Positions 3,072-64,000 of a stretch of DNA of 64,000 nt are shown here, piece after piece. Location of the stretch: contig OZ237739.1 in assembly GCA_965178125.1 (NCBI GenBank), positions 806,001-870,000 of the forward strand, read 5' to 3'. A model generated the notes under the pieces. The model saw only the letters and a program-made list of their open reading frames with translations, ran no database searches and was not told the DNA's origin. Position 1 is the stretch's first letter; each line of letters opens with the position of its first letter. The stretch is from Bilabrum cf. latius. Lineage: Eukaryota. The translations under genes and the position numbers were made by a program.

Positions 3072-5408
3072 TCAGTACTCGTCCTCGTCTTCGTCCTCGT
3101 CCTCATCCTCGTCGCTAGACTCTATGTCCACCACCATGCTAACACAGCGGTCCACATGCACGGCCATGTCCTGTCCCCTGGGCACGATCTGCTGGCAGAC
3201 TGGACACAGCCGAAGGGCGGCGTCGGGCGCGTCCGCCGGCCCCGCCTCAAACCCTGCCCCCCTCCTGCCGCCGGCCCCTGAGCTGGACATACCCTCCCCT
3301 GGGTCGATCCCACCATCCAGCACCCCTTCGATCTCTGCCGCCTCCTCGAGCGACAGACCCTGCGATGAGGCCCGCTCTACCAGGCTGCCGGCAACACCTG
3401 CGCTTGGCGGCGATTCATTGCTCGGATTCCCGCCTTGTACCGCTTGTTCCTCGCTATCCTAGGGTACCTCTACTTCGTCTTCTTCTTCATCCAGCGGGTC
3501 CTTGGGCCCCCCGCCGCTGGCCCCATTCCCTTCCACTATGGACCCCGCCCCTCGACTGGCCTTCAGTCTCGCTTCGAACTGAGCCAGGAAATCGGCCCGC
3601 CGCGCGTCTCTCACCCTCTGACTGCCTGCACCCGTAGGACCCCCACCACTGGCGCTGCTGCCGCTTGTCGGTCCAACAGAGCCAATCACAGCACCTGCCC
3701 CGCTCGCAGATTCATCGGTCCTGCGTCGCTTCGGACTGTTGCTAGAGCCGCGCCCCAATTGAGGCTCTGCACCGGTACCACCGGTCCTTGCAGCTTTGTT
3801 ATCACCGCTGCTGAAGCTGTCCTCGTCTGAATCGCTCAAGAGCTCGATCGTGGCATGCTTCTTTGGGTTGCCCATTGCATTGCCTCCCGATGATGATGAT
3901 GATGGCTATGATGAAGAAGAAGAGGGCGGCTTCACGGACGGCGGGGAGGATGGCCGTCTCCTCTTGCGCTTCCCTCCTGGCACGGCTTCCGCTATCAGAT
4001 CAGGAGAGGCGGGTAGCCCGGGGATTCCAGACCCCACGATGTGCTGCAGCCGAGGCTAGACAAGCTTCTTCTTCTTCTTCTTCTTATCCTTATTTCTGCC
4101 GGTGCCCGCACTAGAGGGGGAAGAGCTCCCAGCGCGTGGAAGAGCAGGCGGGTCATTCGATGTCAGATCCACCACACCTGCTGCCGTGTGACCTGAGACA
4201 GACGAGCTAGGGCCGGAGGAGGAGCCAGAGGGGCGTGTCGGCAGCGACGGCGGCACAGCAGATGCCGCTGGACCATCAGCGCCCGCACCGCCGCTGCTCG
4301 CCCCCGTGCCCCCGCCCGCAAGGGACCTGCCTTTCCCCAAGAATCGGTCCATGGGCCCGGATTGTGGACCGCTTGTGGATCCAGTGCCTGCGTCTCCGGA
4401 CGACGCAACACCCCCCTCACCCCCACCCTTGCTCTTGCCCGTGCGTTTACCCTTCTTCTTTTTGCCGTACCCCTCTGGCTCCTTGATCTTCACGAACGTT
4501 CCTCCACACTCCTTCTGGTGCCTCGCGAACCACCTGTCGTACGGACCCGGCGGTCTGTTCATGGCGCGCCTGACGTATCCGTAGTAGAACCTCGACCAGC
4601 CGCGGCACGGCCCGTCGCATCGCCAGTGGTGCTGCTGGAACTGGCGCACTTCTTCTCCGAACGTGTGGAACTCCGTCACGTTAGTCCCGAGGATCCTGTT
4701 GCATGCCCTGGCGGCGGCCTTCCACCGCGGGCCGTGCCCCGTGGGCCCGTCACGGTTCCGCACGCCGAACCGCTTGAAGTTCCAGGCGTGCAGGCACTCG
4801 TGGATCAAGGTGTTCACGAAGTCCGACCTGGGGCGCAGGGACAGCAGCGGCTGCGACAGCGCGATGCGGATGTACCCGCCGCCCTGGTAGTAGCAGATGC
4901 CCGCGCACGACGTCATGCGCTTGCTCCAGCACACCTCGCAGCTCGAAAGCACGCCCCCAAACAGCCTACGATTCAGCTCTAAAAAGGTAGCATGCAGGTT
5001 AGGGTTCGGGTCTGACAACTCCAGGGCCGGATCGCACATGTTTGCAACGGGTGAGGCCGGGAGCATCTGCTCCGGGACGGCCTCAAAGAGCGTCAGGCCC
5101 GGCGGCGCCGTGACGGTGCGGAGAGCGTGAGCAACTTGAGCGGATGATAGCACGCCATGCGCAGCTTGGCGCATGCGCTGCCTTTCTCGGGCTACGCCTG
5201 CCGGTGCTGATACCTTCACAATCTCCACGTCATCCTGGTCTTCGCGGAAAGAGCCCTAGCCGGGAATAGACCGCGTGCTACTGCCCGGCAAGCCTGGCTT
5301 CGGGCCTCCACCACCACCCATAGGTCTTTTAGGTCCACCATCACCATTAACCAGCAGCAGCTCTTCTTGCTGCAGAGAAAGAGCAAGCAGTGCGTCTTGT
5401 TCGTTCAT
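3072..5408 (-). CDS. SPRTN: SprT-like metalloprotease Spartan (DNA-protein crosslink repair), with C-terminal UBZ zinc finger
   Basis: Four same-frame ORFs are joined across TAGs at 5256, 4056, 3906 and 3459. N-terminus MNEQDALLALSLQQEE resembles SPRTN. SprT domain WSKRMTSCAG..TLIHECLHAW..GHG, HHWRCDGPC..YYGYVRRAMNRPP. C-terminal CPVCQ..MAVHVDRC (UBZ). Ends in TGA. Confidence 0.9.
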
Positions 5409-5673
5409 CCTGCTTGAAAGACTGCACAATGTGTCTAAAGCAGAATAAGCTCGCTCCACAGTTCGATCATCAACAAAAGGTTCGATAAGGTATACACAGC
5501 TCGAGCTTAGACCTGACCTACTGTAGCTGTGATGCACAGTACGGGACACAATGTCTAAATCAGCCTGTTGCACTGCTCACACCAGCAAAGCTGCGGAGCA
5601 GCTGCCGCCGGTGATTGCGCGGCGCCGGTGATGGCCGAGTTCACCCGTGAAACCAGCGGAATAAACAACAAGC

Positions 5674-8055
5674 ATGGCGGCTGCTCATGCGCAAGGCAGC
5701 CATAACAAGCCAGCCAATAAGACTTCTAGTCATTCCCATCCAAGCCCGACAGGTGGGCAAGAGAAAGGAAATGGAAACAGAGCGGCAAAGGCCACATTGG
5801 CAAAGCAGAAGTCCATGCGCAGCGAGGCCGACGAGCTGTCCAATTGGGACTTCATTGTCCATTTTATGACTACGTTACGCCCCTACTTCTGGCCTGACGG
5901 GGTCTGGAGCAAGGTTTTGGCGTTTTCCTGCTTTATTGCGCTTGGCCTATCCAAAGTGTGCAACCTTGTCGGCCCAATCTTCCTGTCGCTGGCTGTAGAC
6001 CGTCTCGGTGAGAGGGTGTAGAATAATAACTTCGGGACGCTGTCAGACCTTGGCGACTGGCCCTGGGAGTCCCTGTGCATCTACGCTGCAATGTCGTTCG
6101 GTGGCCGAGCATTTCTCGAGCTGTAGCGGTACCTGTACCTTTCGGTGAAAGAAGTTGCCTACAGGGAGGTTGCAACGGCCACATATGACCATATCCTGGG
6201 TCTCAGTGCCTCGTTTTTCGTCAATAAGAAGACGGGTGCTGTGATGCGGTCCTTGGACCGAGGGCTAGCGTCAGCTGCCACCGTGGTGGACTACCTGTTC
6301 CTGCGGCTCGGCCCCACCTTTGTCGAAATGGTGGTCCTCACCATTATTGCAAGCCTTCGGTTCGGCCAGGCCGCCGCCGCGTTGTGCCTCCTGGGTGGCT
6401 TCGTGCTCTACGTAGCGGTGACCTTTTACCTGACCGAGCAGAGGAAGCGCATCCGAGCGAGGATGGTCAAGCAGGACAACGCCGCGACGCAGGTGGCCAT
6501 GGATGCCATCAGCCAGATGGACTTGGTGAAGGCATTCAGTGCCGAACAGTTCGAGCTGCAGCGCTACGCTGACAAGGTCCGGACCTACCAGGCCACCAAC
6601 TACGAGACCCAGGCCACGCTCGCCCTCCTCAACTCGACCCAGAACCTCATCCAGTCCGCCACCATGCTCGGTGTCATGCTCCTGGCCGCGCGCACGGTCA
6701 TCGTGGGGGAGGCATCCGTGGGTGACTTCGTCCTGATGCAGACGTACACGCTGCAGGTGTTCATCCCATTGAGCTTCCTGGGCACCATCTACTCCATGGT
6801 CACCACTGCGTTCGTGGATCTCGGCAACCTCGCGGGGCTCCTGCAGCAGCAGCCAGACGTGCAGGACAAGCCCGGCGCCAAGCCCATCCGGCTGCCTGAG
6901 AGAAATGGGGCCAAGGGCGCGGGGCCGCGCATCGAATTTAAGGACGTGGACTTCGGCTATCCCCTGTACTTTGAGTCCGCGCACGAGACGGGCCCAGGGA
7001 ACAAGGCAGCAGGCGGTTCCAAGGGCAAGGGCGGCGGGGCGGCGGCCAGTGCCGCTGCCTCCAAGACGGTACCAGGCGACGGCGCCGATCTCGAGAAGGG
7101 CCAGGGGAATGGGAAGGGGAAGGGGGAGGGCGCGGTGGAGTCCCACGTGAGGCGCGTGCTGCACGGCGTGTCGTTCACCATCGAGCCCAACACCACCACG
7201 GCCCTCGTGGGCGCCACCGGCTCCGGTAAGAGCTCCATCACCCGGCTGCTGTTCCGGTTTTACGACGTGGACAGCGGGCAGGTGCTCGTCAACGGACAGG
7301 ACGTGCGAGACGTGCAGCAGAAGTCCCTGCGGAGCGCCACCGGGCTGGTGCCCCAGGACACGGCCCTGTTCAACGACACGATCATGTACAACCTGCGGTA
7401 CGGGCGGCCCTCTGCCACCGACGAGGAGGTGATGCAGGCCGCCAAGGCCGCCCAGATCCACGACTTTATCTCTAGCCTTGAGCTGGGTTACAACACTAGG
7501 GTGGGGGAGAGGGGCCTAAAGCTCTCTGGGGGAGAGAAACAGAGGGTGGCCATCGCGCGCATGCTGCTCAAGGACCCTCCCATCGTGGTGCTGGACGAGA
7601 GCACATCTGCGCTGGACTCTGTCACCGAGAGGCGGGTGCAGCAGCAGCTGGACAGCATGGCGGGAGGCAGGACCACCATCGTGGTGGCGCACCGCCTCTC
7701 CACCATCCGGGGCGCGGACCAGATCCTCGTGCTAGACCAGGGCCACGTGGCGGAGCGGGGCACCCACGCTGAGCTGGTGGAAATTGAGGGGGGGCTGTAC
7801 CAGCGGCTGTGGAGCGAGCAGCAGCAGGCAGAGGCAGAGCTCGGGGCGGGGGAGCCCGAGGTGGGCGTCGCTGGCGCGGAGGTGGTGTCGATCGACGTGG
7901 ACGGCGATCAGGGCCAGGGCCAAGGCCAGGCGGGCGAGGCCAAGCCGGAGGCCGCGGCAGCGGGTGAGGTGAGGGCCAGGGGGAGTGGGCCTGCGGGTGC
8001 TAGTGGGGACGCGAGCGCTGCCAGCGATGTTGCTGGCGGAGGGAAGACCGACTGA
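5674..8055 (+). CDS. ABCB6/HMT1/ATM1-type half ABC transporter
   Basis: LRPYFWP N-terminus, transmembrane domain, Walker A GATGSGKS, LSGGEKQR, LDESTSALD. In-frame TAGs at 6019 and 6124 (FLEL*RYLYLSV). Ends in TGA. Confidence 0.9.
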
Positions 8056-8326
8056 GAGGCTCAGCGCTGGGGCCAAGGGACAAGACCCGATCTATTGCTG
8101 CCGTCGTCCCGCCTAGCTGGACGACTCTATGGCGTTAGAGTAGCGGGCAATGTGGTTCACGGCGTGTATGCCTGTACATCTGCAGTTTTGGAACTGCGAT
8201 TCTATTTCTAGACAGCTCTGTGCGCACTGCAAGCAACAACAACCGTCGAGCTCCGTGAGCAACTCGGAGTCAAACTGTTGAACTTCGCCCCATCGCGCGC
8301 CTTGCTGACAACAAAGTGAATTTTTG

Positions 8327-9526
8327 ATGAGCTCAGCACCTCAACACGGTCTGTCGGCTGCTCTTGCAGCGAAACGAGAAGCGACGAAAGCCCAATTTGA
8401 TGACAAGGTAGCAAGATTGACAGCGGGCATCAAGACGAAATCTCTCGAGGACACCTTTGCCGCTGATTCGGGAGAATCTGGGACAGGCAAAGCCCCAGCT
8501 GGGCTTCCAAATAAATATGGCTTGATAACTGCGGCAGAGCTGGCCAAAGATGTTTCTCAGGCTGACGGCGGATCGCAACAGTTGGCCACCCAGACTGCAG
8601 CTAAGGAAGGCTCTACCGCCACTGTTCGCAAAGCCAGGGCCATGAAACGGAAAAGATAGAAATTATCGTTTACACACGGGGCGTCTGATTCTGACAGTGA
8701 AGATAACCCGCTGGCTCTTCGCAAGAAACGAAAGCGCAAGCGCGCCTAGCCTGAAAGCGCAACAGAGTCGTAGAGCACGAAAGCGTCGGCTGGCACGGCA
8801 TCTATTGATACGGCCGGGGGCAGAACCGACGCGCAGCCCAGCAAATATGTTGTAGATAGGTCTTCGGCTTCTACCTCCGCCGCGCATGCGCCCACGCGGG
8901 ACGCATCGTCGGACGTCTCGTTCTTGCTGCAGCACGACGCCGACCGCAAGGCCCAGGAGATCAAGAAGGCCCTGGAGGCTGAGTGGATGGAGCGAGAGAC
9001 GCGATTGAAGCGAAGCAAGATCACAGTGACCTACAGCTACTGGGACGGCAGCGGGCACAGGCGCCAGATCAAGGTGCCTCGAGGGGCGACCATCGGCCGC
9101 TTCCTCGAGTGGGTGAGGCAGGACCTCAGCGCGGAGTTCCCAGAGCTCGCCAAGATATCCGCGGACGGGCTTCTGTACGTGAAGGAAGACCTGATCCTCC
9201 CACATTCGTGCGACTTCCACTCTCTGATAGAGACCAAGGCCAGGGGCAAGAGCGGGCCCCTGTTCGTGTTCGAGGTGGTCGAGGACGTGAGGCTGTCAAC
9301 TGACCACAGGGAGGAAGCAGCGCCCGTGGAGAGCCACCCAGGCAAGGTGGTGGAGCGGAGGTGGTACGAGGCCAACAAGCACGTCTTCCCCGCCAGCAGG
9401 TGGGAGCTCTTTGACGCGCAGCAGGCGCACAGGGACGGCCCTTATACGACCCACGGCGACGAGGTGCGGGGCAAGCGGGCCAAGGAGGGGGCTGGGGCAG
9501 GAGCTGCGAGCGGGGCCACAACATGA
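8327..9526 (+). CDS. FAM50: FAM50/XAP5 (XCT) family nuclear protein
   Basis: Motifs ITVTYSYWDGSGHRR, LLYVKEDLILPH, KARGKSGPLF, ESHPGKVVERRWYEANKHVFPASRWE. The N-terminal half is joined via TAGs at 8657, 8747 and 8771. Ends in TGA. Confidence 0.9.
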
Positions 9527-9645: not shown

Positions 9646-11797
9646 TCACATCTCGTCGTCGTCCATTCCGGCGCTGCCCATATCCATGGCATTCGTGTGG
9701 GACTCGTCCTCGTCCTCGTCCTCATCTCCCTCCATCGCCTTGGACCCGCTCGCCGCCCCGCTGCCGTCACCGCTGCTGGCCGCAGCCTGGAAGCTGATCT
9801 TGCTTGGGCCCGAGGACGCCGACTTGAGCTTGAACCCAGCCACCTCGCCCGCGGCGGCCGCCCGATCCGCGGCCGCCTGCTTGCCCTCCTCCCTGGCCTT
9901 GGCCACTGCCTCCACCCTCGCGCTTACCATCGACTTCGACAGCCCGAACCGCAATGGGCTGCACTCGAGCGAGTCCAGGTCAACCAGCACAGCCTCGCCA
10001 GTGCGCCGGAAACTCGGCACCGACACAAAGAGCGACTTGCGAGAAGCGTCCCCGTGTCCCAGCGCGCCGTCGGGCACCTGCGGCGCAGCACCGCTCACCT
10101 CGACTGCGCCGAACCCCGGCTGGCTGCCTGCAAACACAACGTGCGGCTGGGTCTCCGCGTCCTCTGACTCCATCACGAACGGGTCAGTCTGGCTGAACGG
10201 ATAGCTTGCCAGCGTGTCGGGGGCCGTGGGTGCCAGGTGCCTCCACATGCACGTGTTGGCCAGCACGCGGGCCCTGGACAGGCCCTCCCCGGCGCCGAAC
10301 TCCCTCACGCCCTCAGAGGCACCGGTGCTGCTGCTGGTGCTGGCGCTGCTGGAACCCGCCCCTGAGGACGCGGGTGGGACGTCCGCCCCATCGTCGGTCA
10401 TGGGTGCAGAGCCGCTCCCGCCACCCGCAGGCGCGCCCCCAGAGGCAGCCAGCGTGGCGGGCAGCAGCCCCCGGGCCGTGGTGAACCTGCATATGTCGTC
10501 CACAGGCTGTCCCCCGTGCCCCAGCAGCCTCACCCGCCCTATCTCGCACTCGTGCGGGTTAGAGGCCAGCACCACCATCCCCTTGGAGGCGTATCGCAGG
10601 GTGCGCGGGAGGTTAACGGGCATGAGTGGCTGCTGCGGCATGGTGAGGTTGGTGAGGTCATCCTGCCCCGGGACGATGTCCACGGGGCAGGACGCGGCCA
10701 CCTGCGAGAGCCAGAGGTCTGCCTCCTGCATGGGCAGGGCCAGGCGCTGCTGCTCCGCAAGGGACAGCGCCTTGGCCACCAGGGATGCGTCTTCGTCCTC
10801 TCGCACCATGTTCCCTGCCACGATCACCCGGCAGATCTTGGCCGCCCCCGCGATCGCGCCGGGGGGGCCCAGGCAGCCCATGATGAACTCCAGCAGCATC
10901 TGCCTCGGCAAAGGGTCGCAGGCACCGTCTCCGAACCCGAGGTCCGACACGAGAAGCACGCTTCCCCGTCCGGCCCCCGCCCCGCCAGCCGCGCTTGCGC
11001 CACTCCCGCCAGAGCTGCTGGCCGACGACGAGGCAGCGGAAGACGAGGACGAGGACGAGGACGAGGACGGCGCAGCCCCTGTGCCAGCCGCAGGGGAGAG
11101 GCTGCTGACAGCGGGCGGCAGGGACAGGCCGGAGAAGGCGATCGCGCTCACCACCAGGGCGCCCGCCGCGTTCACCGTGCCTCGCACGGCTGCGCCCATC
11201 CCTGTGACCACTGCATCCACGGGGAGACTGAGGCCGCCCGCACCCTCTGACTCGAGGGAGATGCGACCGGAGGTGTCCTCCAGGATGAGGGAGTCGTCCT
11301 CTGAGCAGAACGAGCTGCCGTCTTGCTTGCCGTCAGTCACTGGCGTGACGCCCTGCGGAGAGGAAGCTAAGGTTGGATGCGCGTCTCAACTTTGCACGGG
11401 CGGGGCAGCGCGACGAGCAAGTCAGCAGGCAAGTTTTACTCACGTCAGCACTGAATTCGTCGAGAGCACTCGGCTTCTTGGCCTATTCCTTGTACACTGT
11501 GCCGACCACGACGCGCTCCTGCCCCTGCCGCAAGTCGATCACCCGGTCCAGTATTCTGGCCTCACTTTTACCGGGCTAGGCCGCAGCAATGCGCTTGGCG
11601 GCCTTCATGAGATACGGTCGCAATGCCCGAACCCTCCGCACATAAATGTGATTGTACTGGCGCTCAAATTTCCTTTCTCGAATGACATATCTTCCAAAGC
11701 AAGGTCTGTAGGGCTGCACAAGGCGGTCTACCTTGGAGTCGGTAGAATCCGATTTTGATGAGTCCAAAGGATCAAACGATTTGCCAGGTTTCTCCAT
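9646..11797 (-). CDS. POLD2: DNA polymerase delta small subunit (one intron, 11353-11443)
   Basis: Motifs RQYNHIYVRR, VVGTVYKE*AKKPSAL, DDSLILEDTSGRI, PQQPL, HLAPTAPDTLASYPF..DPF. A GTGAGT..CCGCAG intron restores the frame. TAGs at 11576 and 11483. Confidence 0.92.
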
Positions 11798-12351: not shown

Positions 12352-14469
12352 TCACTGCCCACCCCTGCCGACCGCTGGCGACCCTATGTCCAGGTCGTCC
12401 AGCGCAGACGGCCTCGATCCCGCACCGTTGCCCAGCGTAGGGGTGGGGAGGAGGCTCCTGGCAAGGGGAGAGTCCTCCGCCAGGCCGGCCTCTCTGGCCT
12501 TACGACTGCTCGCGTCTGACGCGCGGGGGATGCGCTGGGCGCCACCGTCGCTGCCCGCGTACGTGGGCGAATCCGCCCCGCTAATGCCGACTGCCAGCCC
12601 GCTGCCACCCCGCCCGGCGCCAATCCCCTGCATCGAGTAACCAGACACGCTGCCCCGCTCGGCCGCATCCCCAGCACCAAGCAGGCCCTGTTTCTCCGCG
12701 TCCTCCTGCGCCTTCTTCAGCAACACCAGCTGGGCGGCGCTCAGGTTCAGCTTGGGGTGCTCCTCGCACGCATCCACCGCGTTGAGGGCCAGCCCGCTCG
12801 CTGTGCCCGCCACACCCGCCGCGATGAAGAACACCTCCACGCACGTGTACGTCTCCGGACAGCTCGCCTGCAGCCGGCCCACTGCGAGGGGTACGGCCGC
12901 CAGCCCCAGGTTCTGCACCGCAGTGACCAGACCGTATGCCGTGGCGGCGTACTCCTCGGGCACGACCAGCGCGATCGAGGGCCAGAGGGCAGAGGCGTAG
13001 ATGCAGTAGGTGAGACCAAGTGTGACGAGTGGCAGGACGGGGTTCCAATGCGTGAATCCGAGGGCCGTGTGCACGAGGGCAATCATCACGGCGGCCACGA
13101 CGTTGAGGCGCGCCCTCTGCCCCAGGTTGTCGATGGCGGCCCCGAGGAAGGGGGACAGGGAGCCCGCGGTGAGGTAGATGACCAGCATGTACGTGTTGGC
13201 AGTCTCGTCTTCAAGGTCCCACTTGAGCTTGAGGAAGTCGCTGGCGATGTTGTTGAAGGGCAGCACCGCGCAGTAGACGGTCAGGCAGGACAGGGTGAGC
13301 ACCCAGAAGGTCGCGGGGAAGGTGAAGATGGCCCGCAGGTCGATCGTCTCGTCCTCCAGGCCCTCCTTGTCCGGGTCATCGTCATCGCCCATCAGCAGGC
13401 TAGACGCCTCGCTCGTCCGTCGATCCGGTCCCGGGGCCGTGCTAGAGCCCGAGCCAGGCTTGTCGCCGGCTCCGTTGCGGAGCCGCAGCTGGCCCTGCTC
13501 GGTTCCGCTCGCAGCCGCGGCGGCGGCGCCGCGCAGGTTGCGGGATGCCCCGCCGTTGGCGGTCCTCCTGAGCGTCTTCCTGTTCTCCCTGAGCACCTGG
13601 ACGGCCGCCACGTCGATGTAGTAGGCCCATATGGCCGCGCCCAGCGACATGACGCACACCAGCACGCCCGCCCACAGGGCCCACGCCATGTTCAGGTGCT
13701 TGGCCAGGGCAAGCGAGGCCTCGTCGTTGATCACCGACCCGTACCTAGCCAGCGCCAGGTTGACTCCGAGCGCCAGTGCGATCTCCTTTCCCTGAAACCA
13801 CTGCGCGATCATGGCAGACATGCTCACCGACAACGACTCGCCGCCGAGGCCGAACACCACGCGGCCGAACAGCATGATGCCCCAGGCGACGTTGTCGTCC
13901 TCGATTGTGATGCCAACTGCAAAGATGATCTACCCGATCAGGATGAGCAGGGCAAAGATCACGGTTGTCAGCCGCACGCCCCAGAGGTCGCTAAAGTAGC
14001 CTCCCAGCAGGGGAAGCACGACGTTGGGCCACGAATAAACGCTGTACAGCGAGTTGTAGAGCAAATTATACCGCTTCTAGCCTATTCTAGGGATGTAGTA
14101 CGGACCCATCTGCGAGCAGCAATGAACAGATACCGGACAACACAACAGAGTGAGATTGTTCTTGGCGACATCTCCGCGGTCGCCAAATCAAGGCCCTTTG
14201 CTCACCACAACATTGATCGCCGTAGGAATATCATAGCAATAATAGCTGCCAATCAGACCGAGACACAATAGCACCAGAATCTTCCACCGGTCTGTCAAGT
14301 GAGGGCGCTTAGTTGGGAGCGCAGGCTCCGTGCAAACTCCTCCGACCAGCGCGAGCCTGGCTGCCTCAGCATCCTCTGGAGTCCGAATGGAAGAATCTCC
14401 ACCATTTACATGAAAGTGATTCTTGCCATCCAAGACAGTGTACGTCGCTGCATCAGCAGCTTCAACCAT
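12352..14469 (-). CDS. MFSD1: MFSD1-like lysosomal major facilitator transporter (intron 14110-14205)
   Basis: Motifs GSYYCYDIP, LYSVYSWPNVVLPLLGG, LILIG*IIFAVG, GRVVFGLGGESL, WFQGKEIALA, TAYGLVTAVQNLGLA. TAGs at 14077 and 13930. Confidence 0.9.
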
Positions 14470-17620: not shown

Positions 17621-17924
17621 GGCGCAATACTGGGGCGAACTGGCGATGTGCGTCGGCGGTGCTGCAACGAGTTGCAGTTGCCCCTTCTCTGCACGCATGC
17701 CATGATGCCAGTGGCAGTGCTGGGCTGACATTCAATCAATTTAGCAATTCCATCTTTTTAGTTCAAGGGTGATACTCACCAGTAAATTGCAGGGCACACC
17801 AGAACCCAACCTCGTCCCCAGTCGTGCGGGCACCCGAGCACGCGCGAGAACGCCTACAGCTGCATCGTCAATGCGCGCCACCGACCCGGACTCCCGTACA
17901 TTCCGTCACGCGTCCTGCCCACTC

Positions 17925-31182: not shown

Positions 31183-31214
31183 ACTTATGAGTATATCAAA
31201 CACACTCCACTATT

Positions 31215-53326: not shown

Positions 53327-53430
53327 GAATGTCCCAGAGCGTCGTTCATGAAATAGCAGCGCAGATGACGAGCGCAAAGCTGCATCGGCGAGCATGCATG
53401 CAAAGTGGTTGCCAGATTTAGTTTTGTCAA

Positions 53431-56400: not shown

Positions 56401-58611
56401 CATCGAGATTAGAAGCGGCGGGCATGCGTTGCCGTGCACAGACAGGTGCTTTGGGCACCTCTTGCAACGCGGCTGCACCCACGAAGGCCGGACCTGCTTT
56501 GTGGAGTACCGCTGGGGCGGGTGTCAGCTGGTCGCGTAGTGGCCCAGGACGAGGAGCGCATGGACTGGGCTAGGTGTGTGCTAGAAGTGCTCCAGCAATG
56601 TCGAGAGCTGAGTAGCCTGGCGGCCAGGTCTGGTGTCCTTGCTCTGCAGAGAGAGGCCCTGCAGAGGCTGCACAGCGTAAGCATGCGGAGTGTTGAGGTT
56701 GTGGCAGCGGCCAGCTGTCAGCCGGGCTTGCGCGCTCTCATGGACGTGCCTGCCGTAGGCGTGCTCAGCCTGGCAGGCGTCATGCCCGTCGTGATCGCCA
56801 GCTCCAGCACCTCGGGGCGGCGTGGGGACATCGTGGACGAGGAGGTCATCGCAGTGGGGGGCAGCCAGCGGCCCGTCCGACGTATGATCGATGGAGGAAT
56901 TCAGCTGGATCGAGAACTGTTCGAATCCATGGATTGCTTCGGTGCAGCAACTCGTGCCGATGCTTCAATGCTGGAAGATGCCATCACGAAGGCCTCTCGG
57001 TCGGTTCTGGATCCTTCCGTGCAGATAATCAGGCTACCAGCCAAAGTGGGCACTGTGCGAAGCATCGGGAGCATTCGCGGCCTGCCGGTAGCCCCCGCCT
57101 CCATCCAGGCAGTCAGAGAGTGGTCAAAGGCCCAGGGGTCCAGCACTCCAATGCACGACGCAGGTATTGGGAAAGACGCAGACAAGCCCCCGCAGAGCAG
57201 GCTGCTTGTGCACGCCTCACGCGGGCTGATGCTCCTGGAGAGCAGCAGCCACCCGGACACGGTTTTGGCAGACGTGCATGCTGGCAGGCAGATCGCAGAG
57301 GCAGCCCTGCAGCACCTTGAGGATGTGGAGACCGCTTGGCACGTTGTATTGTGTGGCATCTTGGGGAGAAGCAGCTCTGGCGATTCGTTGCACCTGTTCC
57401 GCATCGTGGGGCTGGAGTGCCTCCGATTCGCGAGAGATTGCAGCGAGGGCCAGAGCTGGGCAACGGATGGACGGGGCGTCGGCTCTATCGCAGCAAGTGC
57501 ATCGAGCGGGAGTCCCGCGGGCGCATCGTATGGATTCGTATTCAAACGGGCTGGCCTCGCCTGGAGTCGCAAGGTGGACGCTGCGGTCGAGCTCGGTATC
57601 CTGGCGATGCTGGCAGCAGCGGAGACAGACGCGTTTCCGGGCGGGCAACTGCCTCCTGATCCGATCGTGGATGTGCTGGAGAGCATCAAGGCTACTAGTG
57701 CCAGCAGCGATGCTGGAGAGGCGAGCCTGGGTGCTGCGCGCAGCATGGCAGGCGAGTCACCCTCACGAGTGTCACACCACCTGCGGATGGTGGGCGTGGC
57801 GCAGCAGCTGGCTCGTGTATCGACTGCCCTCGGCTCGCTCCAGCCGGCCATGGCCCTTCTGGCCGCAGCATCGGGGACTGCCGCCCCCCTAGCATCGCCA
57901 TCTTCTTTCTTCTTGCGTCTGCTTCGGCGGTGGTCTGCATCCCATGCCCCGCCCACAGAGCAGCTCGACGCCGCCAGGGCCCGTCCATCCGAGGGTTTAA
58001 GGGCGCGGCTGCCTGCCCTGCTGCGGGGCATCACCGCGGCCAACGGGTTTCGTATGGGCAACGGAGCGGCAGGCAAGGCAGCCGCTGCTCTAGTGCAAGG
58101 GGCGGGCGCGCTCGCAGAGTACCTGCACCCAATCACTTCCCTCCCCAAGGTGCCTGCGCAGGCAGCAGCATACGAGGTGGCGATGGCGGTGGGCATGAGG
58201 GCAGCGCGGCTAGCCGTGTCGCAGTCCGCCTCCAAGTATCTCAGCAGAGTGGGTTACCCTGAGAGTCTGCCTTTAGTTCTGCAGCGGCTGCTGCTAGAGC
58301 CAGATGCTGCACTGCCGCTGTCTCTTCGCCAGCTGATGCGGCAGGCGGCGCTGCAGCATGTCGGTCTGCTGAGGGCCGGCAGCGAGAGGTTGGGCAGTGG
58401 CGGAGGTGGTTAGATGGATGACTATGAGCAAGCTGGCTGGTGGGAGGTGGTCGAGGCGTGGATCGGCATGTCTGGGGGCCATTCCGCCGCAAGGATCAGT
58501 GCAGCTGTCGCCCGGGCGCGTAGGGGCCTGCGAGCTGCCGACGGAGCTGCAGTGGCGAAAGGGTCCAGCTCGGTGCTACAGGAGATCATCTAGTGTGTTG
58601 CCGATGATTGA
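53431..58611 (+). CDS. Large hypothetical protein, about 1726 aa, with a possible N-terminal beta-propeller
   Basis: Six listed ORFs lie in one frame separated only by TAG, with a terminal TGA at 58609. WD-like strands (VTVHPAVSCFAIARSNGDLNLV; VLVVGGSSGQVCLLD). Confidence 0.7.
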
Positions 58612-58726: not shown

Positions 58727-61202
58727 ATGGATGCCGTTCTAGGCCATACAACAAGCCCAACTTAGCGAATGGACTGGCAGAAAGAATTTCGTGATGACAT
58801 TGAGGATGGTGAGATTGCATGCTTCGCAGCTGTAAGGCAAATCGTCGCTGCAAAGACCGCAATAGATAACTAATACAAGCGATGTGCCCCTTGCAGGAAG
58901 GCTAGGAGACGATGGCCAAGGAGCTGGTAATGACGATGGCACTAATGAACTACATTCAGCATATGCTGCCACAGAAAGCAGCACTCTTGACCTGAGCAGC
59001 GTTCTTGGTGCTGGCGCGGGCCGCGGTGGCAAACAGAAGGGCGGCAAGAAGGGTAAAAAGGGCAAGAAAAAGAAAAAAGACCGGGTTGCAAGCCGAACGG
59101 TGGCTGAAAGCACAATGGAGACTGCTGGTATGGGCTTGTTTGGCTCTGCTGCGCCGGAAAGATCGACACAGGTACTGTTCGCCGCGACTGCGGTGTCTGA
59201 ATCATCGCGAGCTGCCGCTGAAGAGCGCCATCGCGAGGCAACACAGCGCGCTGCTGCCTCCAGTGTGGCTGCAGCTGCAAGTAATGGCGCTGCATCAGAC
59301 CTTGGGGCTGCGTTTGAGGGGCGAGCCGACCCGATGGCAAGCGCAGCCGATGCTCCAGCCACGGCCGCCGAAATGCTGCTTGCTGGTGGGCCTGGCGCCG
59401 TCCTTCGCGGTGGCCCCCAGGGCAGGGTACGACGTGGTGGTCGAGTGGAAATACGAGAGGCCAGAGATGCCTTGCCAGACGTGCCTGAACTTGTCCGCCG
59501 CAGCCTCGCCAGCGCGTCACACCGCACCCCTCTAGCGCTCGTGGTTGCCGGTCATGTGGACGCTGGCAAGAGCACGCTCATCGGCCGCATGCTGTATTCT
59601 CTGGGCCAAGTTGGCGCCGCCACGCTCAGGAAATTCCGCAGGGAAGCGGAACGCGGCGGTAAGGGTTCCTTCGCGCTGGCGTGGGTGATGGACGCGGGAG
59701 GGGACGAGAGGGAGAGGGGCGTGACGGTGGACGTGGGGATGGGCTAGATGAGGATCAAAGGCAGAGATGTTGTTCTTCTCGATGCCCCCGGGCATGCCGA
59801 CTTCGTACCGAACGCCATTGCGGCTGCCGCAACGGCAGATGCTGGCCTGCTGGTGGTCCCTGCCCCTCACGGTGACTTCAAGCGTGCCTTTGCTACTATG
59901 GGGCAGACTCGGGAGCACGCCTGTCTTCTAAGGGGCCTTGGATGCAGGCGTTTGATCGTGGCAGTGAACAAGATGGATGCATGCGAATGGTCCAAGACCA
60001 GGTTTGATGCGGTCGTGGCCCGTGTGACAGACTTTCTCAGCCACGACGCCGGCTGGAACGTGCAGCGCGACGTTGCCTTCGTCCCTGTGAGTGGTTTCCT
60101 AGGCAGCAACGTGGTAGAGCCGCTAGGGCAGGCTTCCTCGCGGCCTGACTTAGGATGGACGGCACCCGCAGCCTCAAAGGAGGCCTCCGTGGGCTCTGCC
60201 GAGAGACCCGAGGACGAGGGGTCCATGGCATCTGGCGGCGACGCTCCCGAGCACGCGGAATCGGTGGCTGCGATGTGGTACGCCACTTACTGCGAGTCCG
60301 TGGTGGCGGAAGGCAAGTCGAGCATACTGACCGGCAGCCTGCCTGGGCCTGACGGCAGACCGCGGGGTCCCACTTTGATCGAGTGCATCGATGCGTTGCC
60401 TTCTCTTCCTACGGAGCTAGTGCTTGACCCGCTCCGGCTAGCTGTCTCTGATGTTCGGAAGGAAAGCAGCGGGGCGGTGTTTGCCACGGGCCGAGTGACG
60501 AGCGGGTGGGTGCAGCAGGGTGACAAACTTCTGGCGCCTCCTGCCGCTGACGATGTGATGGTCAAGGCGGTGAAGCCTCTACAGGTGGTTGCGGATGATT
60601 CGGCCGAAGGTTTTGCAGCCTACATGGAGTCGGACGCTTCCGCTGGTGCGGCTATGGGTGGAGTAAGCGAGGCGGATGCATTGAGAGATGCTGCAGGAGC
60701 CCTGTGGGGCGGCAAGAAGTTCAAGCCTTGCGGACTGGTTGGGCAGTTTGTTGAAGTTCAGCTGGGTGGGACGTCAGCTGTTGGTTTGCGCAAAGGTGAC
60801 GTCCTCAGTTGGGTTGCCAGCCCCGTCCCTGCAGCTGGAGAAATCAAGGCTCTTCTTCGGGTGCTCCCAGCGGCAAAACGAGGACCTCCTCTGGTGGAGG
60901 GTCTGCGCATGTCGCTTCACGCCCACAACTGTGAGACTCTTTGCAGCTTCACGAAGGTTGTGGCATTGGTTGAGCCCGGGGCATGCGTGGAGCACGGCGA
61001 CTTTAAGAAAGGGGGCGCAAAAATGCTGGGGAACAGAGAATGGCTGCAGGTCAGAATACGCCTGAGCAACCAGATCCCCCTCGTTCCTGATGGCGACAAG
61101 GCTGGTGCGGCGCATCCTCTCAGCACCTTCGTGCTTCGGTACAGCAACTTGACCGTAGCGGCAGGTCTAGTCATTCGCACATACGCCGGAGAACCAGTAT
61201 GA
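58727..61202 (+). CDS. HBS1: HBS1-like translational GTPase (ribosome rescue); probable intron 58809-58896
   Basis: [56 protein letters not shown]. The G domain is split by the TAG at 59745. Ends in TGA. Start approximate. Confidence 0.85.
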
Positions 61203-61358
61203 AAGGTTTGCAAGTATCATGGATCGCAAAATAAGGGAGATCGCAGTCAACAATTATTATATTTTATTTGATCCAGTACAAGATCTTGGGCGGCCCAACC
61301 TCCACGACAAATTGTGAGCGCATCGCCTAATGCACACCTGCTCCGATGGCTAAACCAG

Positions 61359-64000
61359 TCACTACCCAACAAGCGTGGATGGCCTCGGCGGTGCGTCAGG
61401 CCTGCTGAACTTGTACAGCGCATACGCTTTCCCGGCATCGATGCAACGGGACACTAGCCACTTCTGGTCGGCTTGGGTTGACCCGTCCCAGGTTGCAGAT
61501 TCATCTACCGCCAAGGAGTGATTGGAGCTCGAGCTGGCCTGGGCTGTCGCACTCAACACGTCTGCCTGAGCGGTGCCGGCACTACTACTATTGCTACTGC
61601 TGGTGCTGCTACTACCGGCGCCGTGACTGGCGCTGCTACTGCTACCACCGATCTGTGCATCTGCTCTTGCGCCAGAAGCTCGAGTTGAAACCGGGCTAGA
61701 GCCCCTGGAACCGCTATCGGCTGGCGCTGTCGGCCTCACACGTGGTGCACTAGATGCAGGGATCTGTACTGTTTCCCCAGGCGGCGCTTGCAGCATCGAT
61801 GCAAGGGCGGGAAGCTATGCGTGAGCCACGTCTTTGGGGGGTAGCCTTGGCGACAACGCATCGAGACGCGGGAGCGTGAGCATGGCCTCGAGTGTCCGAA
61901 ATGGTAATTGAGCTGCTGCTGCGGCCGAAGTCCCTTCGACGCTGCCGCTACAGCTGCCGCCTAAGACGTCGACGTCGCAATCTGTTTCCGTATTGCTCAG
62001 CGATACCTCGCGCAAGTGCACCTAGTCTGCTACGGCGGCCCAATCGCGTACTGGATCACGCAAGCAATCGGGGTCGGACTGCTTGCGTTTCGGTGTCGAA
62101 TGGCTTCCGTGCGACACGCGGGCCGAGCTTGCATCTGGACTAGGAGTGGCGTTGCTCCCGGCAGCCTTGTCGACCCTGGCTCGCTTGGAGTTTGGTGCTG
62201 GAGATTCCGCCGATTCAGAACTGCTCCTGCTGCGCTTGCTGGGCTGAGTACGACCATTGCCTCCCGAAAATACGACCTGCATCAGTCCATCGCCCTGCAC
62301 CTCTTTTCCAACCACCCTGACAACTCTCTGCGGGTTGGTGTCACCGCTACCGGCCCCTTGCTCTTCAATGCCTCCAGCCCGCGCGACACCCAGCGATCGC
62401 AGCAGCACTGCGTCTTCTGCCGCGTCATCGACGACACCTGCAGCCGCACCTGCAGCTTTCATGGCCTCCTCGCTCCTAGGCTTGCCAAAGTTGTTCTTGC
62501 CCGATACCTGCAGCCCCAGGTTGCTGCCCAGCATCAGGGCGTGGGCCTGCTGCACGCGGTGCAGCCGGTCCAGCACTCGGTCCATCACCACGGTGCCGTC
62601 CTCAAACACGGCGTCCTACTCGTCCTCGCCCTCCTCGTACGCCTCGTTGCGGTTAACCACGTCGAAGCCCGAAGGGAACATGGGTCCTGCAAAGGTCTCA
62701 GACCTGCGCGGCATGAGCACCCAGGGAGCCCCAGTGTCGGCGATGAAAACGATCTGGTTCTTCGAGGGGTTCGATTCTACGCACGCAGCATCGCCGCTGT
62801 AGGCAGGCAGTCGTATGCTGTGCATGCTGCCTATTGCTCCTCGCTGGAACAGAAACACCTGGCCTGCCTTCACTCCCGTGTCTCTTGGATCAGGCAATGC
62901 AATCACCCATCGCTGGTCAGGCGACAATGCAGCCTGCGCCAGAGTTGTGCCATCCACGGGGTCAGCGTATGTCTCCTGCGCTTCAAGCTCGCACCCGCTG
63001 GAAGATTCGGCGCTGGTCTCCGTCTTAGCAGCTGCGTCGTCCTGTGCCGTGGATGATGCGCTGGAAGCGCCTCTGCTACTTGCACTGGCCCCAGAGGCTA
63101 CACCTAAGGCCTCAGGCTTCGCGACAATGTCACGCTCGGTGCATGTAAGCACGTGTACACCTGACTTGTTACACAGCAGGGCCACTGGGTCACCCCACTG
63201 GAACACGCTGTCCCGGCCGCTGCCTGCAGGCGCGCCCGATACCTCGCCATGACCAAGAGGCGGTTCCACCTCGCGGAGAGTTGGCGTCCCAGACGATGAA
63301 GCGGTCGGACTTACACCTAGCAGCGCCAGACTGAACCCGGGATCTGCTGGAGGTACTGGGCCTCGAGCTCTGGTCACGCTCACCTCCACCAGCTGGTGGT
63401 CCCGCGTTGCCAGAAGCAGGGTGGCCGAGGGAGGCTGCAGGGCACTGTCGGGATCGCTATCCGCGGCCATGCCTTTTCGGCGCATCCATGCTACGGATGC
63501 CCCGGCTGCGTCGGAGCCAGGTGCCTTGCGATGGGCTGCACTGGCAGGGGCTGTTTCAAAGGCGGCATCGTGCGGCTGCGATGCCCCGAGGCTGCCAAGG
63601 TCCACAGGGACGATTGACGCTCGGGATATCGAGCGGACTGGCGGCTATACAAGGCAACCTGGGCTTCCAACTCCTGCTGCCACTTGCGCCCTTGCAGCGA
63701 TGGCAGTCTTGGCACGTGCCAGCCCGTCAGGTTTGAAATTGATGACATGTGGGGGACCTTTCAGCAAAGTGCAAACAAGCAGGCCTGGTTCTCGTGGGTG
63801 CACGCATATCGACCGGATTCCAGAGGCCACTCTGCGAAGTACGATATTATGAAACAACAAACAGCGCGGCAGAGATTTGATTCTCGGTTCTACATGGCTG
63901 ATTGTCACGGGCGACGTTGCAGCCAAACGAAAGGCCTTACTTTGCGGCCCCTAGCAGCGATCCATCCTCAGGATCAATTGCACCAATAAATCCGTCTCCT
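61359..64000 (-). CDS. RBBP5/Swd1-like WD40 protein (5'-partial)
   Basis: One frame from the window edge across TAGs (63951, 63645, 62616, 62022, 61815, 61362) to a TGA. WD strands, then ETFAGPMFPSGFDVVNRNEAYEEGEDE*D and later DCDVDVL, resembling the RBBP5 acidic segment. Confidence 0.6.

What the first reader, a model, noticed from the sequence alone, without database searches (positions are those of the whole stretch)
3072..61361. UAA and UAG are decoupled; termination is almost entirely by UGA
Of 23 gene ends I could infer, 22 are TGA and one is TAA (NTE1, 40538). None needs TAG. I saw no internal in-frame TAA in exons, despite abundant TAG and ordinary use of CAA. In the common ciliate-type code (table 6) both UAA and UAG mean Gln, so here eRF1 would have to reject UAG while accepting UAA and UGA. 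The UAA=stop call rests on its absence as a sense codon plus only one terminal example.
Basis: partly seen in the sequence, partly recalled or inferred. Interest (0 to 1): 0.8.

Follow-up and report, generated by a model that had tools for sequence, protein, structure and literature searches.

The report
UAG means glutamine; UGA ends genes
This GC-rich protist genome reads the stop codon UAG as glutamine, keeps UAA out of its genes and ends almost every gene with UGA, a rare kind of genetic code already described in a few other protists.

Summary
In 23 gene ends (3072-61361), 22 are TGA and one is TAA (NTE, 40538-40540). Across 16,518 in-frame codons there are 101 TAG, 0 TAA and 0 TGA. The other two frames hold 107 TAA.

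TAG means glutamine:
- Two TAGs in CCT-gamma fall on columns that are Q in 80 of 80 and 106 of 106 homologues.
- The MFSD1 TAG aligns to Q in PDB 8r8q.
- In a syntenic metagenome contig from a close relative (L001), 14 of 18 conserved-context partners of TAG are CAG or CAA.

L001 uses the same code: 43 in-frame TAG, 0 TAA, and 4 of 4 gene ends TGA. Spliced transcript contigs carry the TAGs unchanged.

So UAG and UAA are decoupled. This is a table-15-type code, known since 2017 in Iotanema and later in some ciliates. What may be new is the lineage, which groups with Cafeteria in a one-gene tree, and the use of UGA rather than UAA as the main stop.

Three points stay open. UAA as a working stop rests on one gene. 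The excess of TGA is not clearly beyond what base composition predicts. No tRNA or eRF1 gene could be reached.

The parts
3072..5576 (-). SprT/Spartan-like gene. Stop TGA at 3072-3074. 4 in-frame TAG.
   Evidence: Pfam SprT-like 1.6e-23 and SPRTN_ZBD 5.1e-21; codon table.
5665..8055 (+). ABC half-transporter gene. Stop TGA at 8053-8055. 2 in-frame TAG.
   Evidence: Pfam ABC_membrane and ABC_tran.
8309..9526 (+). XAP5-domain gene. Stop TGA at 9524-9526. 3 in-frame TAG.
   Evidence: Pfam XAP5 5.1e-42, reaching profile position 150 of 155.
9646..11385 (-). DNA polymerase subunit B gene. Stop TGA at 9646-9648. No TAG.
   Evidence: Pfam DNA_pol_E_B 3.8e-31.
12352..14187 (-). MFSD1-like transporter gene. 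Stop TGA at 12352-12354. TAG at 13930-13932 aligns to Q of a solved MFSD1 structure.
   Evidence: PDB 8r8q_A, E 2e-57: the query's 'ligX' aligns to 'cigQ'; TAG coordinates.
14705..17731 (-). Dus3-like dihydrouridine synthase gene. Stop TGA at 14705-14707. 3 in-frame TAG.
   Evidence: Pfam Dus 1.7e-35.
17925..20111 (-). ORF of unknown family (716 codons from its ATG). Stop TGA at 17925-17927.
   Evidence: ORF list; no Pfam hit. The strand was chosen on amino-acid composition. The antisense ORF also ends in TGA.
21146..25195 (+). ORF of unknown family (1349 codons). 10 in-frame TAG. Stop TGA at 25193-25195.
25879..26370 (+). Small ORF with a weak match to ciliary microtubule inner protein 2B. 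Stop TGA at 26368-26370.
   Evidence: Pfam CMI2B-like E 0.0022, below the curated cut-off.
26807..28306 (-). Mitochondrial carrier gene with two introns (27851-27946 and 28046-28159). Stop TGA at 26807-26809.
   Evidence: Pfam Mito_carr 2.7e-57; CT..AC joints in contigs of runs X6-X8.
28619..29410 (-). Expressed ORF of unknown family. 2 in-frame TAG. Stop TGA at 28619-28621.
   Evidence: Transcript contigs 28501-29355 (X6), 28569-29343 (X7) and 28575-29349 (X8).
29333..30133 (+). GNAT acetyltransferase gene. 3 in-frame TAG. Stop TGA at 30131-30133.
   Evidence: Pfam Acetyltransf_1 7.2e-11.
31215..32864 (-). Cupin_8/JmjC gene. 5 in-frame TAG. Stop TGA at 31215-31217. Intron at 32756-33078.
   Evidence: Pfam Cupin_8 9.5e-36, reaching profile position 250 of 252; transcript contigs begin at 31168 or 31231.
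33723..34300 (-). Small spliced gene (introns 33961-34055 and 34145-34228). Stop TGA at 33723-33725, followed directly by TAG.
   Evidence: CT..AC joints; stop context.
34426..36324 (+). CCT-gamma (TCP-1) gene. Exons 34426-34535, 34630-34841 and 34971-36287. TAG codons at 34481-34483, 34511-34513 and 34797-34799. Stop TGA at 36285-36287.
   Evidence: GT..AG joints in X6, X7 and X8 with 0 other letters. The TAG columns are Q in 80/80 and 106/106 non-gap homologues; the third column is mostly N. The C-terminus 'PEE' is shared with relative P0121.
36380..36900 (-). TMEM17-like gene (intron 36693-36794). Tail CAG GGG CAG TTC TGA. Stop TGA at 36380-36382.
   Evidence: Pfam Transmemb_17 1.8e-15. The L001 orthologue ends TAG GGA TAG TTT TGA and gives the same protein end.
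37089..40040 (-). DUF6259-containing gene. 6 in-frame TAG. Stop TGA at 37089-37091.
   Evidence: Pfam DUF6259 2.4e-11. The L001 orthologue has 23 in-frame TAG and ends in TGA.
40538..46937 (-). NTE/patatin lysophospholipase gene. 21 in-frame TAG, including 42329-42331 in the GTSxG motif. The only TAA terminator, at 40538-40540. 5' introns at 46544-46638 and 46822-46936.
   Evidence: Pfam cNMP_binding, NTE_Ploop and Patatin. Spliced contig X6 covers 40484-46543 with 0 other letters. The GTSxG column is Q in 16 of the 18 closest hits, and in 31 of all 120. L001 has CAG there.
40469..40471 (-). Next in-frame TGA, 22 codons after the NTE TAA. It would be the stop if TAA were read through.
   Evidence: It lies 13 nt beyond the end (40484) of the one transcript contig shown.
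47310..51536 (+). ORF of unknown family (1390 codons from its ATG). 14 in-frame TAG. Stop TGA at 51534-51536.
51572..53479 (-). ORF of unknown family. 7 in-frame TAG, the last one 3 codons before the stop (51581-51583). Stop TGA at 51572-51574.
53329..58611 (+). ORF of unknown family (1760 codons). 9 in-frame TAG, the last one 6 codons before the stop (58591-58593). Stop TGA at 58609-58611.
58836..61202 (+). HBS1-like translational GTPase gene. Stop TGA at 61200-61202, 9 residues after the end of the eEF1A-C-like domain.
   Evidence: Pfam GTP_EFTU 4.7e-40 and GTP-eEF1A_C to residue 779 of 788. Best solved relative is HBS1L, 3.4e-39.
61359..63998 (-). ORF of unknown family, open at its 5' end. 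6 in-frame TAG, the last one (61362-61364) directly before the stop. Stop TGA at 61359-61361.

Best explanation
The window is nuclear DNA of a GC-rich, intron-poor, flagellated protist. A one-gene tree places it in the stramenopiles, near Cafeteria.

Its cytoplasmic translation uses a table-15-type code:
- UAG is decoded as glutamine throughout genes. It makes up about 13% of Gln codons.
- UGA is the routine terminator.
- UAA is not decoded as an amino acid and survives as a rarely used terminator.

What is shown: the meaning of UAG, the exclusion of UAA from reading frames, the stop counts, and the same code in a close relative.

What is inferred from published reasoning on other UAG-only recoders:
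- A tRNA-Gln with anticodon CUA reads UAG. It cannot read UAA, because C34 does not pair with A.
- An eRF1 that has lost recognition of UAG still recognises UGA and, probably, UAA.
- The dominance of UGA is probably at least partly a result of GC-rich composition.
For: TAG is sense:
- The longest ORF rises from 814 to 2025 codons when TAG is read through.
- Pfam domains run across TAG codons.
- There are 101 in-frame TAG in 16,518 codons.

TAG is Gln:
- CCT-gamma TAGs fall on columns that are Q in 80/80 and 106/106 non-gap homologues.
- MFSD1 aligns X to Q in PDB 8r8q.
- Against the syntenic relative L001 (94% identical in CCT-gamma), 14 of 18 conserved-context TAG/non-TAG pairs are CAG (13) or CAA (1), and there is 1 TAG/TAG pair.
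- The NTE GTSxG column is Q in 16 of the 18 closest hits.

The TAGs are in the RNA, so editing is not the explanation. Spliced contigs of three runs from two studies cover CCT-gamma, and one covers NTE, all with 0 other letters.

TAA is not sense:
- 0 in frame against 42 and 65 in the other frames. 23 to 43 would be expected if it were a synonym of TAG.
- 0 in about 2,900 in-frame codons of L001.

Stops: 22 TGA and 1 TAA in the window; 4 of 4 TGA in L001. The TGA stops of CCT-gamma and TMEM17 sit at C-termini conserved between the two species.

TAG next to a stop is still translated: TMEM17 ends CAG GGG CAG TTC TGA in the window and TAG GGA TAG TTT TGA in L001.

Precedent and mechanism: PMC5304391 (abstract, section 9) and PMC11687900 (abstract, sections 10-11).
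Against: - UAA as a stop has one example (NTE). Its C-terminal tail is not conserved with L001, which ends about 60 residues later in TGA. Read-through to the TGA 22 codons downstream is therefore not excluded by homology.
- The transcript hint is a single contig end.
- Distant homologues do not uniformly show Q at TAG columns. In NTE the commonest residues are I (84 of 120, at GTSxG), L, E, D, A and K at various TAG columns.
- One CCT-gamma TAG column is mostly N (56), with Q only 3 times.
- 4 of 18 conserved-context partners in L001 are Ala, Gly or Met codons.
- No tRNA gene was found in the window or in L001, and no eRF1 is available, so the mechanism is untested.
- The TGA excess is not significant against the off-frame coding null (p 0.09 for 23 ends, 0.05 for 27).
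- There is no protein-level evidence.
Confidence: 0.7

Rival explanations
1. UGA is the only efficient terminator. The eRF1 has become UGA-specific, as in organisms that read both UAA and UAG as Gln, but only a CUA-anticodon tRNA exists. UAA is then an unassigned, avoided codon. The NTE 'TAA stop' would be an inefficient stop, or would be read through to the TGA 22 codons downstream. This could be a stage on the way to full UAR=Gln.
For: - Only 1 of 27 gene ends (window plus L001) is TAA. Against the non-coding composition null this is p 1e-4.
- The NTE tail after the last conserved block differs in length and sequence between the window and L001, and L001 ends in TGA.
- An in-frame TGA follows the TAA after 22 codons.
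Against: - The deficit of TAA stops is not significant against the off-frame coding composition (p 0.05 to 0.09).
- The one transcript contig shown ends before the downstream TGA. This is a weak hint only.
- In the published UAG-only recoders, UAA is kept as a stop (PMC5304391 abstract; PMC11687900 sections 10-11).
- An unassigned codon at a gene end should be selected against.
Confidence: 0.15
2. UAG has two meanings: Gln inside genes and stop close to the 3' end, as in context-dependent codes. Some genes would then really end at a TAG a few codons before the TGA.
For: - 4 of 23 genes have a TAG within the last 6 codons, against 0.84 expected (Poisson p 0.011; the threshold was chosen after seeing the data).
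- In L001, NTE has TAG 6 and 8 codons before its stop, and TMEM17 has TAG 2 and 4 codons before its stop.
- 3' UTRs look short. CCT-gamma contigs end 29 to 37 nt after the stop in three runs.
Against: - The TMEM17 C-terminus SRRQGQF is the same in both species. It is encoded CAG..CAG in the window and TAG..TAG in L001, and the neighbouring codons differ only synonymously through to the last residue. So TAG 2 and 4 codons from the stop is translated as Gln.
- A dedicated stop (TGA) is never found in frame, so no positional signal is needed.
- The clustering may instead be left over from former TAG stops.
Confidence: 0.07
3. This is an ordinary ciliate-type code (table 6) in which UAA also means Gln and is merely rare because the genome is GC-rich.
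For: The genome is about 60% GC, and A-ending codons are the minority.
Against: - In-frame CAA, GAA, AAA and TTA are all in normal use (131, 265, 131 and 42). These predict 23 to 43 in-frame TAA; none is seen (P at most 3e-11).
- 107 TAA lie in the other two frames of the same genes.
- There are also 0 in about 2,900 in-frame codons of the less GC-rich relative L001.
Confidence: 0.03
4. The pattern is an artefact: pseudogenes, assembly errors, or RNA editing of UAG to CAG.
For: None found.
Against: - Spliced transcript contigs from two other studies reproduce the TAG-containing exons with 0 differences.
- An independent metagenome contig from a related species shows the same code and the same gene order.
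- TAG sits in invariant Gln columns of an essential chaperonin.
Confidence: 0.01

Closest known systems
UAG-only reassignment to Gln in Iotanema spirale (Fornicata), which is formally the assignment in NCBI translation table 15 (the table number is recalled, not taken from a call)
   Same: UAG encodes Gln while UAA is not a sense codon and UGA is a stop. The predicted mechanism is a tRNA-Gln(CUA) plus an altered eRF1 (PMC5304391, abstract and section 9 read).
   Different: In Iotanema, UAA is the primary terminator; here 22 of 23 ends are UGA. The lineage is different (a metamonad there; a stramenopile-like organism here). That evidence was transcriptome only; here there is genomic DNA, spliced transcript contigs and a second species.
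Phyllopharyngean ciliates Hartmannula sinica and Trochilia petrani (UAG=Gln), with Protocruzia tuzeti as cited there
   Same: UAG alone is reassigned to Gln and is widely used. There, 78 to 84% of genes hold a UAG and it makes up 18.5 to 31.8% of Gln codons. Here, 20 of 23 genes hold one and it makes up about 13% of Gln codons (PMC11687900 section 10).
   Different: Those ciliates end 86.9 to 98.3% of genes in UAA and at most 13.1% in UGA, and the authors argue that UAA is fixed as the stop (PMC11687900 sections 10-11). Here the proportions are reversed. The genome is GC-rich, and the contig holds many genes with spliceosomal introns.
Rhizarian exLh and the TARA phyllopharyngean MAGs (UAG=Leu); Scotinosphaera (UAG=Ser, as cited in PMC11687900 section 11)
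   Same: UAG is decoupled from UAA, and UAA is kept as a stop.
   Different: The amino acid differs. Here the conserved columns and the comparison with the close relative give Gln, not Leu or Ser.
Ciliate/hexamitid/aphelid code (table 6: UAA and UAG = Gln, UGA the only stop)
   Same: UAG means Gln, and UGA ends nearly all genes.
   Different: UAA is never in frame here (0 seen against 23 to 43 expected), so a defining feature of this code is not met.
Context-dependent stop/sense codes (Condylostoma, karyorelicts, Blastocrithidia)
   Same: A canonical stop codon is abundant inside genes. 3' UTRs look short. TAG clusters near gene ends.
   Different: UGA and UAA are never in frame. TAG 2 and 4 codons before a stop is conserved as Gln. 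These papers were seen only as search listings and abstract openings.

Membership tests
UAG-only to Gln nuclear code (table-15 type) | In-frame UAG is common inside conserved genes | tested here: met
   101 in-frame TAG in 16,518 codons; 20 of 23 genes hold one. Pfam domains span them.
UAG-only to Gln nuclear code (table-15 type) | UAG falls at conserved Gln positions | tested here: met
   CCT-gamma columns are Q in 80/80 and 106/106 homologues. MFSD1 aligns to Q. 14 of 18 conserved-context partners in L001 are CAG or CAA. Distant NTE homologues give mixed residues.
UAG-only to Gln nuclear code (table-15 type) | UAA is not used as a sense codon | tested here: met
   0 in frame against 42 and 65 off frame; 23 to 43 expected if it were sense. 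0 in L001 reading frames.
UAG-only to Gln nuclear code (table-15 type) | UAA functions as a terminator | tested here: inconclusive
   1 of 23 ends in the window (NTE) and 0 of 4 in L001. One transcript contig ends between the TAA and the next TGA. The C-terminal tail is not conserved.
UAG-only to Gln nuclear code (table-15 type) | UGA functions as a terminator | tested here: met
   22 of 23 ends and never in frame. The C-termini of CCT-gamma and TMEM17 are conserved up to the TGA in two species.
UAG-only to Gln nuclear code (table-15 type) | A cognate tRNA-Gln with anticodon CUA, and no UUA-anticodon tRNA | not testable with these tools
   ARAGORN finds 0 tRNA genes in the window and in L001. 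No genome is held.
UAG-only to Gln nuclear code (table-15 type) | An eRF1 N-domain altered so that UAG is not recognised | not testable with these tools
   No eRF1 gene is in the window. The GTPase at 58836-61202 is HBS1-like, not a release factor.
Ciliate-type code (table 6, UAR=Gln) | Both UAA and UAG occur in frame at Gln positions | tested here: not met
   TAG does, TAA never does.
Context-dependent stop/sense code | The same codon is sense internally and a stop near the 3' end, with no dedicated stop codon | tested here: not met
   TGA and TAA are never in frame. TAG 2 and 4 codons before the stop corresponds to CAG in the orthologue, with the protein end conserved. This rests on one gene, so a minor dual use is not excluded.

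The most novel reading that the evidence does not exclude
This lineage may terminate essentially only at UGA. Its release factor would have lost UAG and be losing, or have lost, UAA, which is nearly gone from gene ends (1 of 27) yet not captured by any tRNA. That would be a living intermediate between the standard code and the UAR=Gln code, reached by capturing UAG first. It runs against the published argument that UAA is locked in as the stop in UAG-only recoders. The cluster of TAG codons just upstream of stops would be what remains of former TAG terminators.
Probability: 0.15. Interest if true: 0.75.

Novelty: new member of a known kind. Interest (0 to 1): 0.5.

Why it matters
Changes to the nuclear genetic code are rare, and each independent case tests ideas about how stop codons are captured. 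UAG-only reassignment to Gln is already documented. This case differs from the documented ones in three ways:
- It lies in a different, GC-rich lineage.
- UGA, not UAA, is the working stop.
- Genomic DNA, spliced transcripts and a second species with the same code are all available.

UAA is almost unused here, so the lineage can test whether UAA is really locked in as the stop once UAG is reassigned. It can also test what an eRF1 looks like when it must reject UAG in a genome that relies on UGA.

On the practical side, any annotation of this genome under the standard code will truncate most proteins: 20 of the 23 genes here hold an in-frame TAG.

Tried and rejected
- Whole genome: none is held. 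Genome-wide codon counts, a tRNA scan and an eRF1 comparison were therefore impossible.
- tRNA search: 0 genes in the window and in L001.
- Sequencing runs: no RNA holder listed. Three runs that the tool guessed to be RNA nevertheless gave contigs joined across GT..AG introns, and I used those. These are contigs only, so transcript ends are hints at best. For NTE only one contig was shown; 205 further pieces were not listed.
- PDB search with the NTE C-terminal half: it gave only a bacterial patatin, PlpD, with M at the GTSxG position. This says nothing about Gln.
- Distant NTE homologues (120 sequences): Q is the commonest residue at only one of the 21 TAG columns, and that column is mostly gaps. 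Only the closest hits are informative.
- In one search the fourth gene pair (TMEM17 last exon) was given out of frame for L001. It showed 18 of 79 identities and 2 apparent TAA. I discarded that row and redid the gene in frame. Its three L001 TAG codons may have added to the low-conservation or gap classes of the tally, but not to the 18 conserved-context pairs that matter. I did not recompute the tally without that row.
It was fixed.
- A literature search for the accession prefix of the nearest EukProt hit found nothing, and I did not pursue it.
- Reading the HBS1-like GTPase as eRF3 was rejected: its best solved relative is HBS1L.
- A table-6 reading and an artefact or editing reading were rejected (see the rival explanations).

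Full report
WHAT THE WINDOW IS

The window is about 60% GC and holds no tRNA genes. Under the standard stops the longest ORF is 814 codons. With TAG read through, ORFs of 2025, 1760, 1408 and 1349 codons appear. Reading TAA through as well adds almost nothing (2025 to 2048).

Pfam places ordinary eukaryotic genes on these ORFs:
- haem peroxidase
- SprT/Spartan
- an ABC half-transporter
- XAP5
- DNA polymerase subunit B
- an MFS transporter
- Dus3
- a mitochondrial carrier
- GNAT
- Cupin_8/JmjC
- CCT/TCP-1
- DUF6259
- an NTE-type patatin lysophospholipase with cNMP-binding domains
- an HBS1-like GTPase
- TMEM17
- a weak CMI2B-like hit

CHECKING THE OBSERVATION

I delimited 23 gene ends between 3072 and 61361. 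A 24th gene, the peroxidase, runs off the window. Twenty-two genes end in TGA and one, NTE, ends in TAA at 40538-40540.

Counts in reading frames 0/1/2 over 16,518 in-frame codons:
- TAA: 0/42/65
- TGA: 0/251/300
- TAG: 101/152/125

So TAA is excluded from the reading frame as strictly as TGA, while TAG behaves like a sense codon.

CAA is in normal use, at 131 against 548 CAG. Scaling the 101 TAG by the in-frame A/G ratios of the CAR, GAR, AAR and TTR codons predicts 23 to 43 in-frame TAA. None is seen, and the Poisson probability of that is 3e-11 or less.

The ORFs were delimited by TAA and TGA, which builds in some circularity. The TGA-only ORF lengths and the contrast between frames show the exclusion is still real.

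WHAT TAG ENCODES

The strongest evidence comes from CCT-gamma. Its exons are defined by GT..AG joints in contigs of three runs. The spliced reading frame holds three TAG codons. Two fall on alignment columns that are Q in 80 of 80 and 106 of 106 non-gap homologues. The third column is variable, with N 56 and Q 3.

The MFSD1-like gene aligns its TAG to Q of the solved MFSD1 structure 8r8q.

In NTE, the TAG in the GTSxG nucleophile motif is Q in 16 of the 18 closest hits. Across all 120 hits it is I in 84, Q in 31 and M in 5. Most other NTE TAG columns are gapped or dominated by other residues in distant homologues. By itself, that protein is weak evidence.

A SECOND SPECIES WITH THE SAME CODE

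A scan of metagenome contigs with the CCT-gamma exon returned L001, a 9,474-bp contig whose CCT-gamma is 94% identical. It is collinear with window 34968-44439 at 68 to 83% nucleotide identity and is about 55% GC.

Read with TAG as sense, L001 holds orthologues of four window genes. None has an in-frame TAA, and all four end in TGA:
- CCT-gamma
- TMEM17 (5 TAG)
- DUF6259 (989 codons, 23 TAG)
- NTE (at least 1293 codons, 15 TAG)

I then aligned the orthologues codon by codon. Where at least 6 of the 10 flanking residues are identical, a TAG in one species faces:
- CAG 13 times
- CAA once
- TAG once
- another codon 4 times (Ala twice, Gly, Met)

In poorly conserved stretches the partners are mixed, with CAG 5 and others 25, and 7 TAGs face gaps. 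One of the four gene pairs in that call, TMEM17, was entered out of frame. I set it aside and redid it. Together these results make Gln the only tenable reading.

THE TAGS ARE IN THE RNA

The spliced contigs that cover CCT-gamma carry 0 differences from the window. These are records 12, 17 and 23, from runs X6, X7 and X8 of two studies. The same holds for the 6.4-kb spliced contig that covers NTE with all 21 of its TAGs. Editing and assembly error are therefore excluded. The tool lists these runs only as guessed RNA. The GT..AG joints are what identify the contigs as transcript-derived.

IS TAA A STOP?

Exclusion from the frame shows that TAA is not decoded as an amino acid. Positive evidence that it terminates translation is thin:
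- One gene in the window ends in TAA, and none of four does in L001.
- After the last conserved block (RRVSFQE.V.VR.MDS), the NTE tails of the two species differ in sequence and length. L001 runs about 60 residues further and ends in TGA. Homology therefore cannot say whether the window's TAA is read through to the TGA 22 codons downstream at 40469-40471.
- The one NTE transcript contig shown ends at 40484, between the TAA and that TGA. This fits a short 3' UTR of 54 nt and TAA as the stop.
- CCT-gamma contigs likewise end 29 to 37 nt after their TGA in three runs, while the DNA run continues past that point.
- Contig ends are weak hints, and for NTE there is only one.

IS THE TGA EXCESS MEANINGFUL?

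It depends on the null model. If the choice of terminator followed the TAA:TGA ratio seen off-frame in coding DNA (107:551), then 1 or fewer TAA among 23 ends has p = 0.09, or 0.05 for 27 ends with L001 included. Against the non-coding ratio (187:346) it has p = 6e-4, or 1e-4 for 27 ends. I therefore do not claim more than a GC-compatible preference.

A SIDE OBSERVATION AND THE RIVAL IT RAISES

Four of the 23 genes carry a TAG within the last six codons: NTE, unk635, unk1760 and unk879. Only 0.84 are expected (p = 0.011, with the threshold chosen after seeing the data). In L001, NTE and TMEM17 show the same pattern.

This could mean that UAG still terminates near 3' ends. TMEM17 argues against that. 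The window ends CAG GGG CAG TTC TGA and L001 ends TAG GGA TAG TTT TGA. The protein end SRRQGQF is identical, and the neighbouring codons differ only synonymously. Translation therefore continues through TAG two and four codons from the stop. A simpler reading, which I did not test, is that these are former TAG terminators followed by short read-through extensions.

LINEAGE

The closest named CCT-gamma is from Cafeteria roenbergensis, at 71% identity. Oomycetes, a labyrinthulomycete and ochrophytes score 61 to 65%.

In a FastTree of 118 sequences, the window and L001 are sisters (support 1.0) inside a six-member clade with Cafeteria (support 0.93). I dropped three aberrant rows (P0122, P0126, P0141). 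This is one gene on an unrooted tree, so the placement is provisional.

COMPARISON WITH WHAT IS KNOWN

Decoupling of UAG from UAA is published:
- The rhizarian exLh (UAG=Leu) and Iotanema spirale (UAG=Gln) keep UAA as the dominant stop. The predicted mechanism is a CUA-anticodon tRNA plus changes in eRF1, namely T32G in the GTS motif of Iotanema and Ala at L69 in exLh (PMC5304391, abstract and section 9 read).
- Phyllopharyngean ciliates reassigned UAG to Leu once and to Gln twice. Between 86.9 and 98.3% of their genes end in UAA, and at most 13.1% end in UGA. The authors argue that UAA is fixed as the stop.
- The same paper also cites Scotinosphaera (UAG=Ser) and Protocruzia tuzeti (UAG=Gln) (PMC11687900, abstract and sections 10-11 read).

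The code here is therefore of a known kind. It differs in two respects: UGA rather than UAA is the working stop, and the lineage is different.

Seven full-text searches were run in all. Five were aimed at this question: named stramenopile, bicosoecid or Cafeteria, and searches were worded for protists or heterotrophic flagellates. Their listings showed no report of a variant nuclear code in such an organism. One search was the general search for UAG reassignment, and searched an accession prefix. The library lacks most subscription journals, and the data holders may already know of this.

VERDICT

- The decoupling is real, and UAG means Gln.
- UAA is excluded from reading frames, but it is barely attested as a stop.
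- The eRF1 and tRNA mechanism is inferred, not tested.

This is a new member of a known kind, of moderate interest. The boldest reading that the evidence does not exclude is a near-UGA-only terminating lineage caught between the standard code and the UAR=Gln code.

Noticed in passing
window 40550-40552, 51581-51583, 58591-58593, 61362-61364; L001 tails of NTE (stop at 5591) and TMEM17 (stop at 1623): TAG codons cluster in the last 1 to 8 codons before the terminal stop. In the window, 4 of 23 genes have one within 6 codons, against 0.84 expected. This may be what remains of former TAG terminators followed by short read-through extensions.
   Followed up: partly
window 39914-40148: In DNA run X1, contig depth is 1000 to 2000 against about 50 for the flanks. 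Many contigs break here with loose ends. It looks like a dispersed high-copy repeat between the 5' end of the DUF6259 gene and the 3' end of NTE.
   Followed up: no
window 36285-36324, 31168-31217, 40484-40540: 3' UTRs look very short. Transcript contigs end 29 to 37 nt after the CCT-gamma stop (three runs, two studies), 47 nt after the Cupin_8 stop and 54 nt after the NTE stop. Contig ends are only weak hints.
   Followed up: partly
window 26657-26768 and 14813-14868: A perfect hexamer microsatellite, (CCCCTG) x 18.7, lies inside the long C-terminal tail of the mitochondrial carrier ORF, where it reads (GQ)n on the coding strand. A 9-mer repeated 6.3 times lies in the C-terminal part of the Dus3-like ORF. 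The roughly 90-residue tail after the last carrier repeat is unusual.
   Followed up: no
window 28000-36000: A lower-GC island (0.47 to 0.54, against about 0.60 to 0.68 elsewhere) holds the small spliced genes and most of the introns seen.
   Followed up: no
L001 2392-5361 versus window 37089-40040: The relative uses TAG far more in the same gene: 23 against 6 in the DUF6259 orthologue. TAG is 23 of 66 Gln-type codons there. The relative is also less GC-rich, about 55%. TAG usage therefore varies quickly between close species.
   Followed up: partly
window 36380-36900 and 25879-26370: A TMEM17-like transition-zone protein and a weak hit to ciliary microtubule inner protein 2B suggest that the organism is flagellated.
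   Followed up: no
window 34968-44439 versus L001 40-9408: Gene order and orientation (CCT-gamma, TMEM17, DUF6259, NTE) are conserved between the window and the metagenome contig, at 68 to 83% nucleotide identity.
   Followed up: yes
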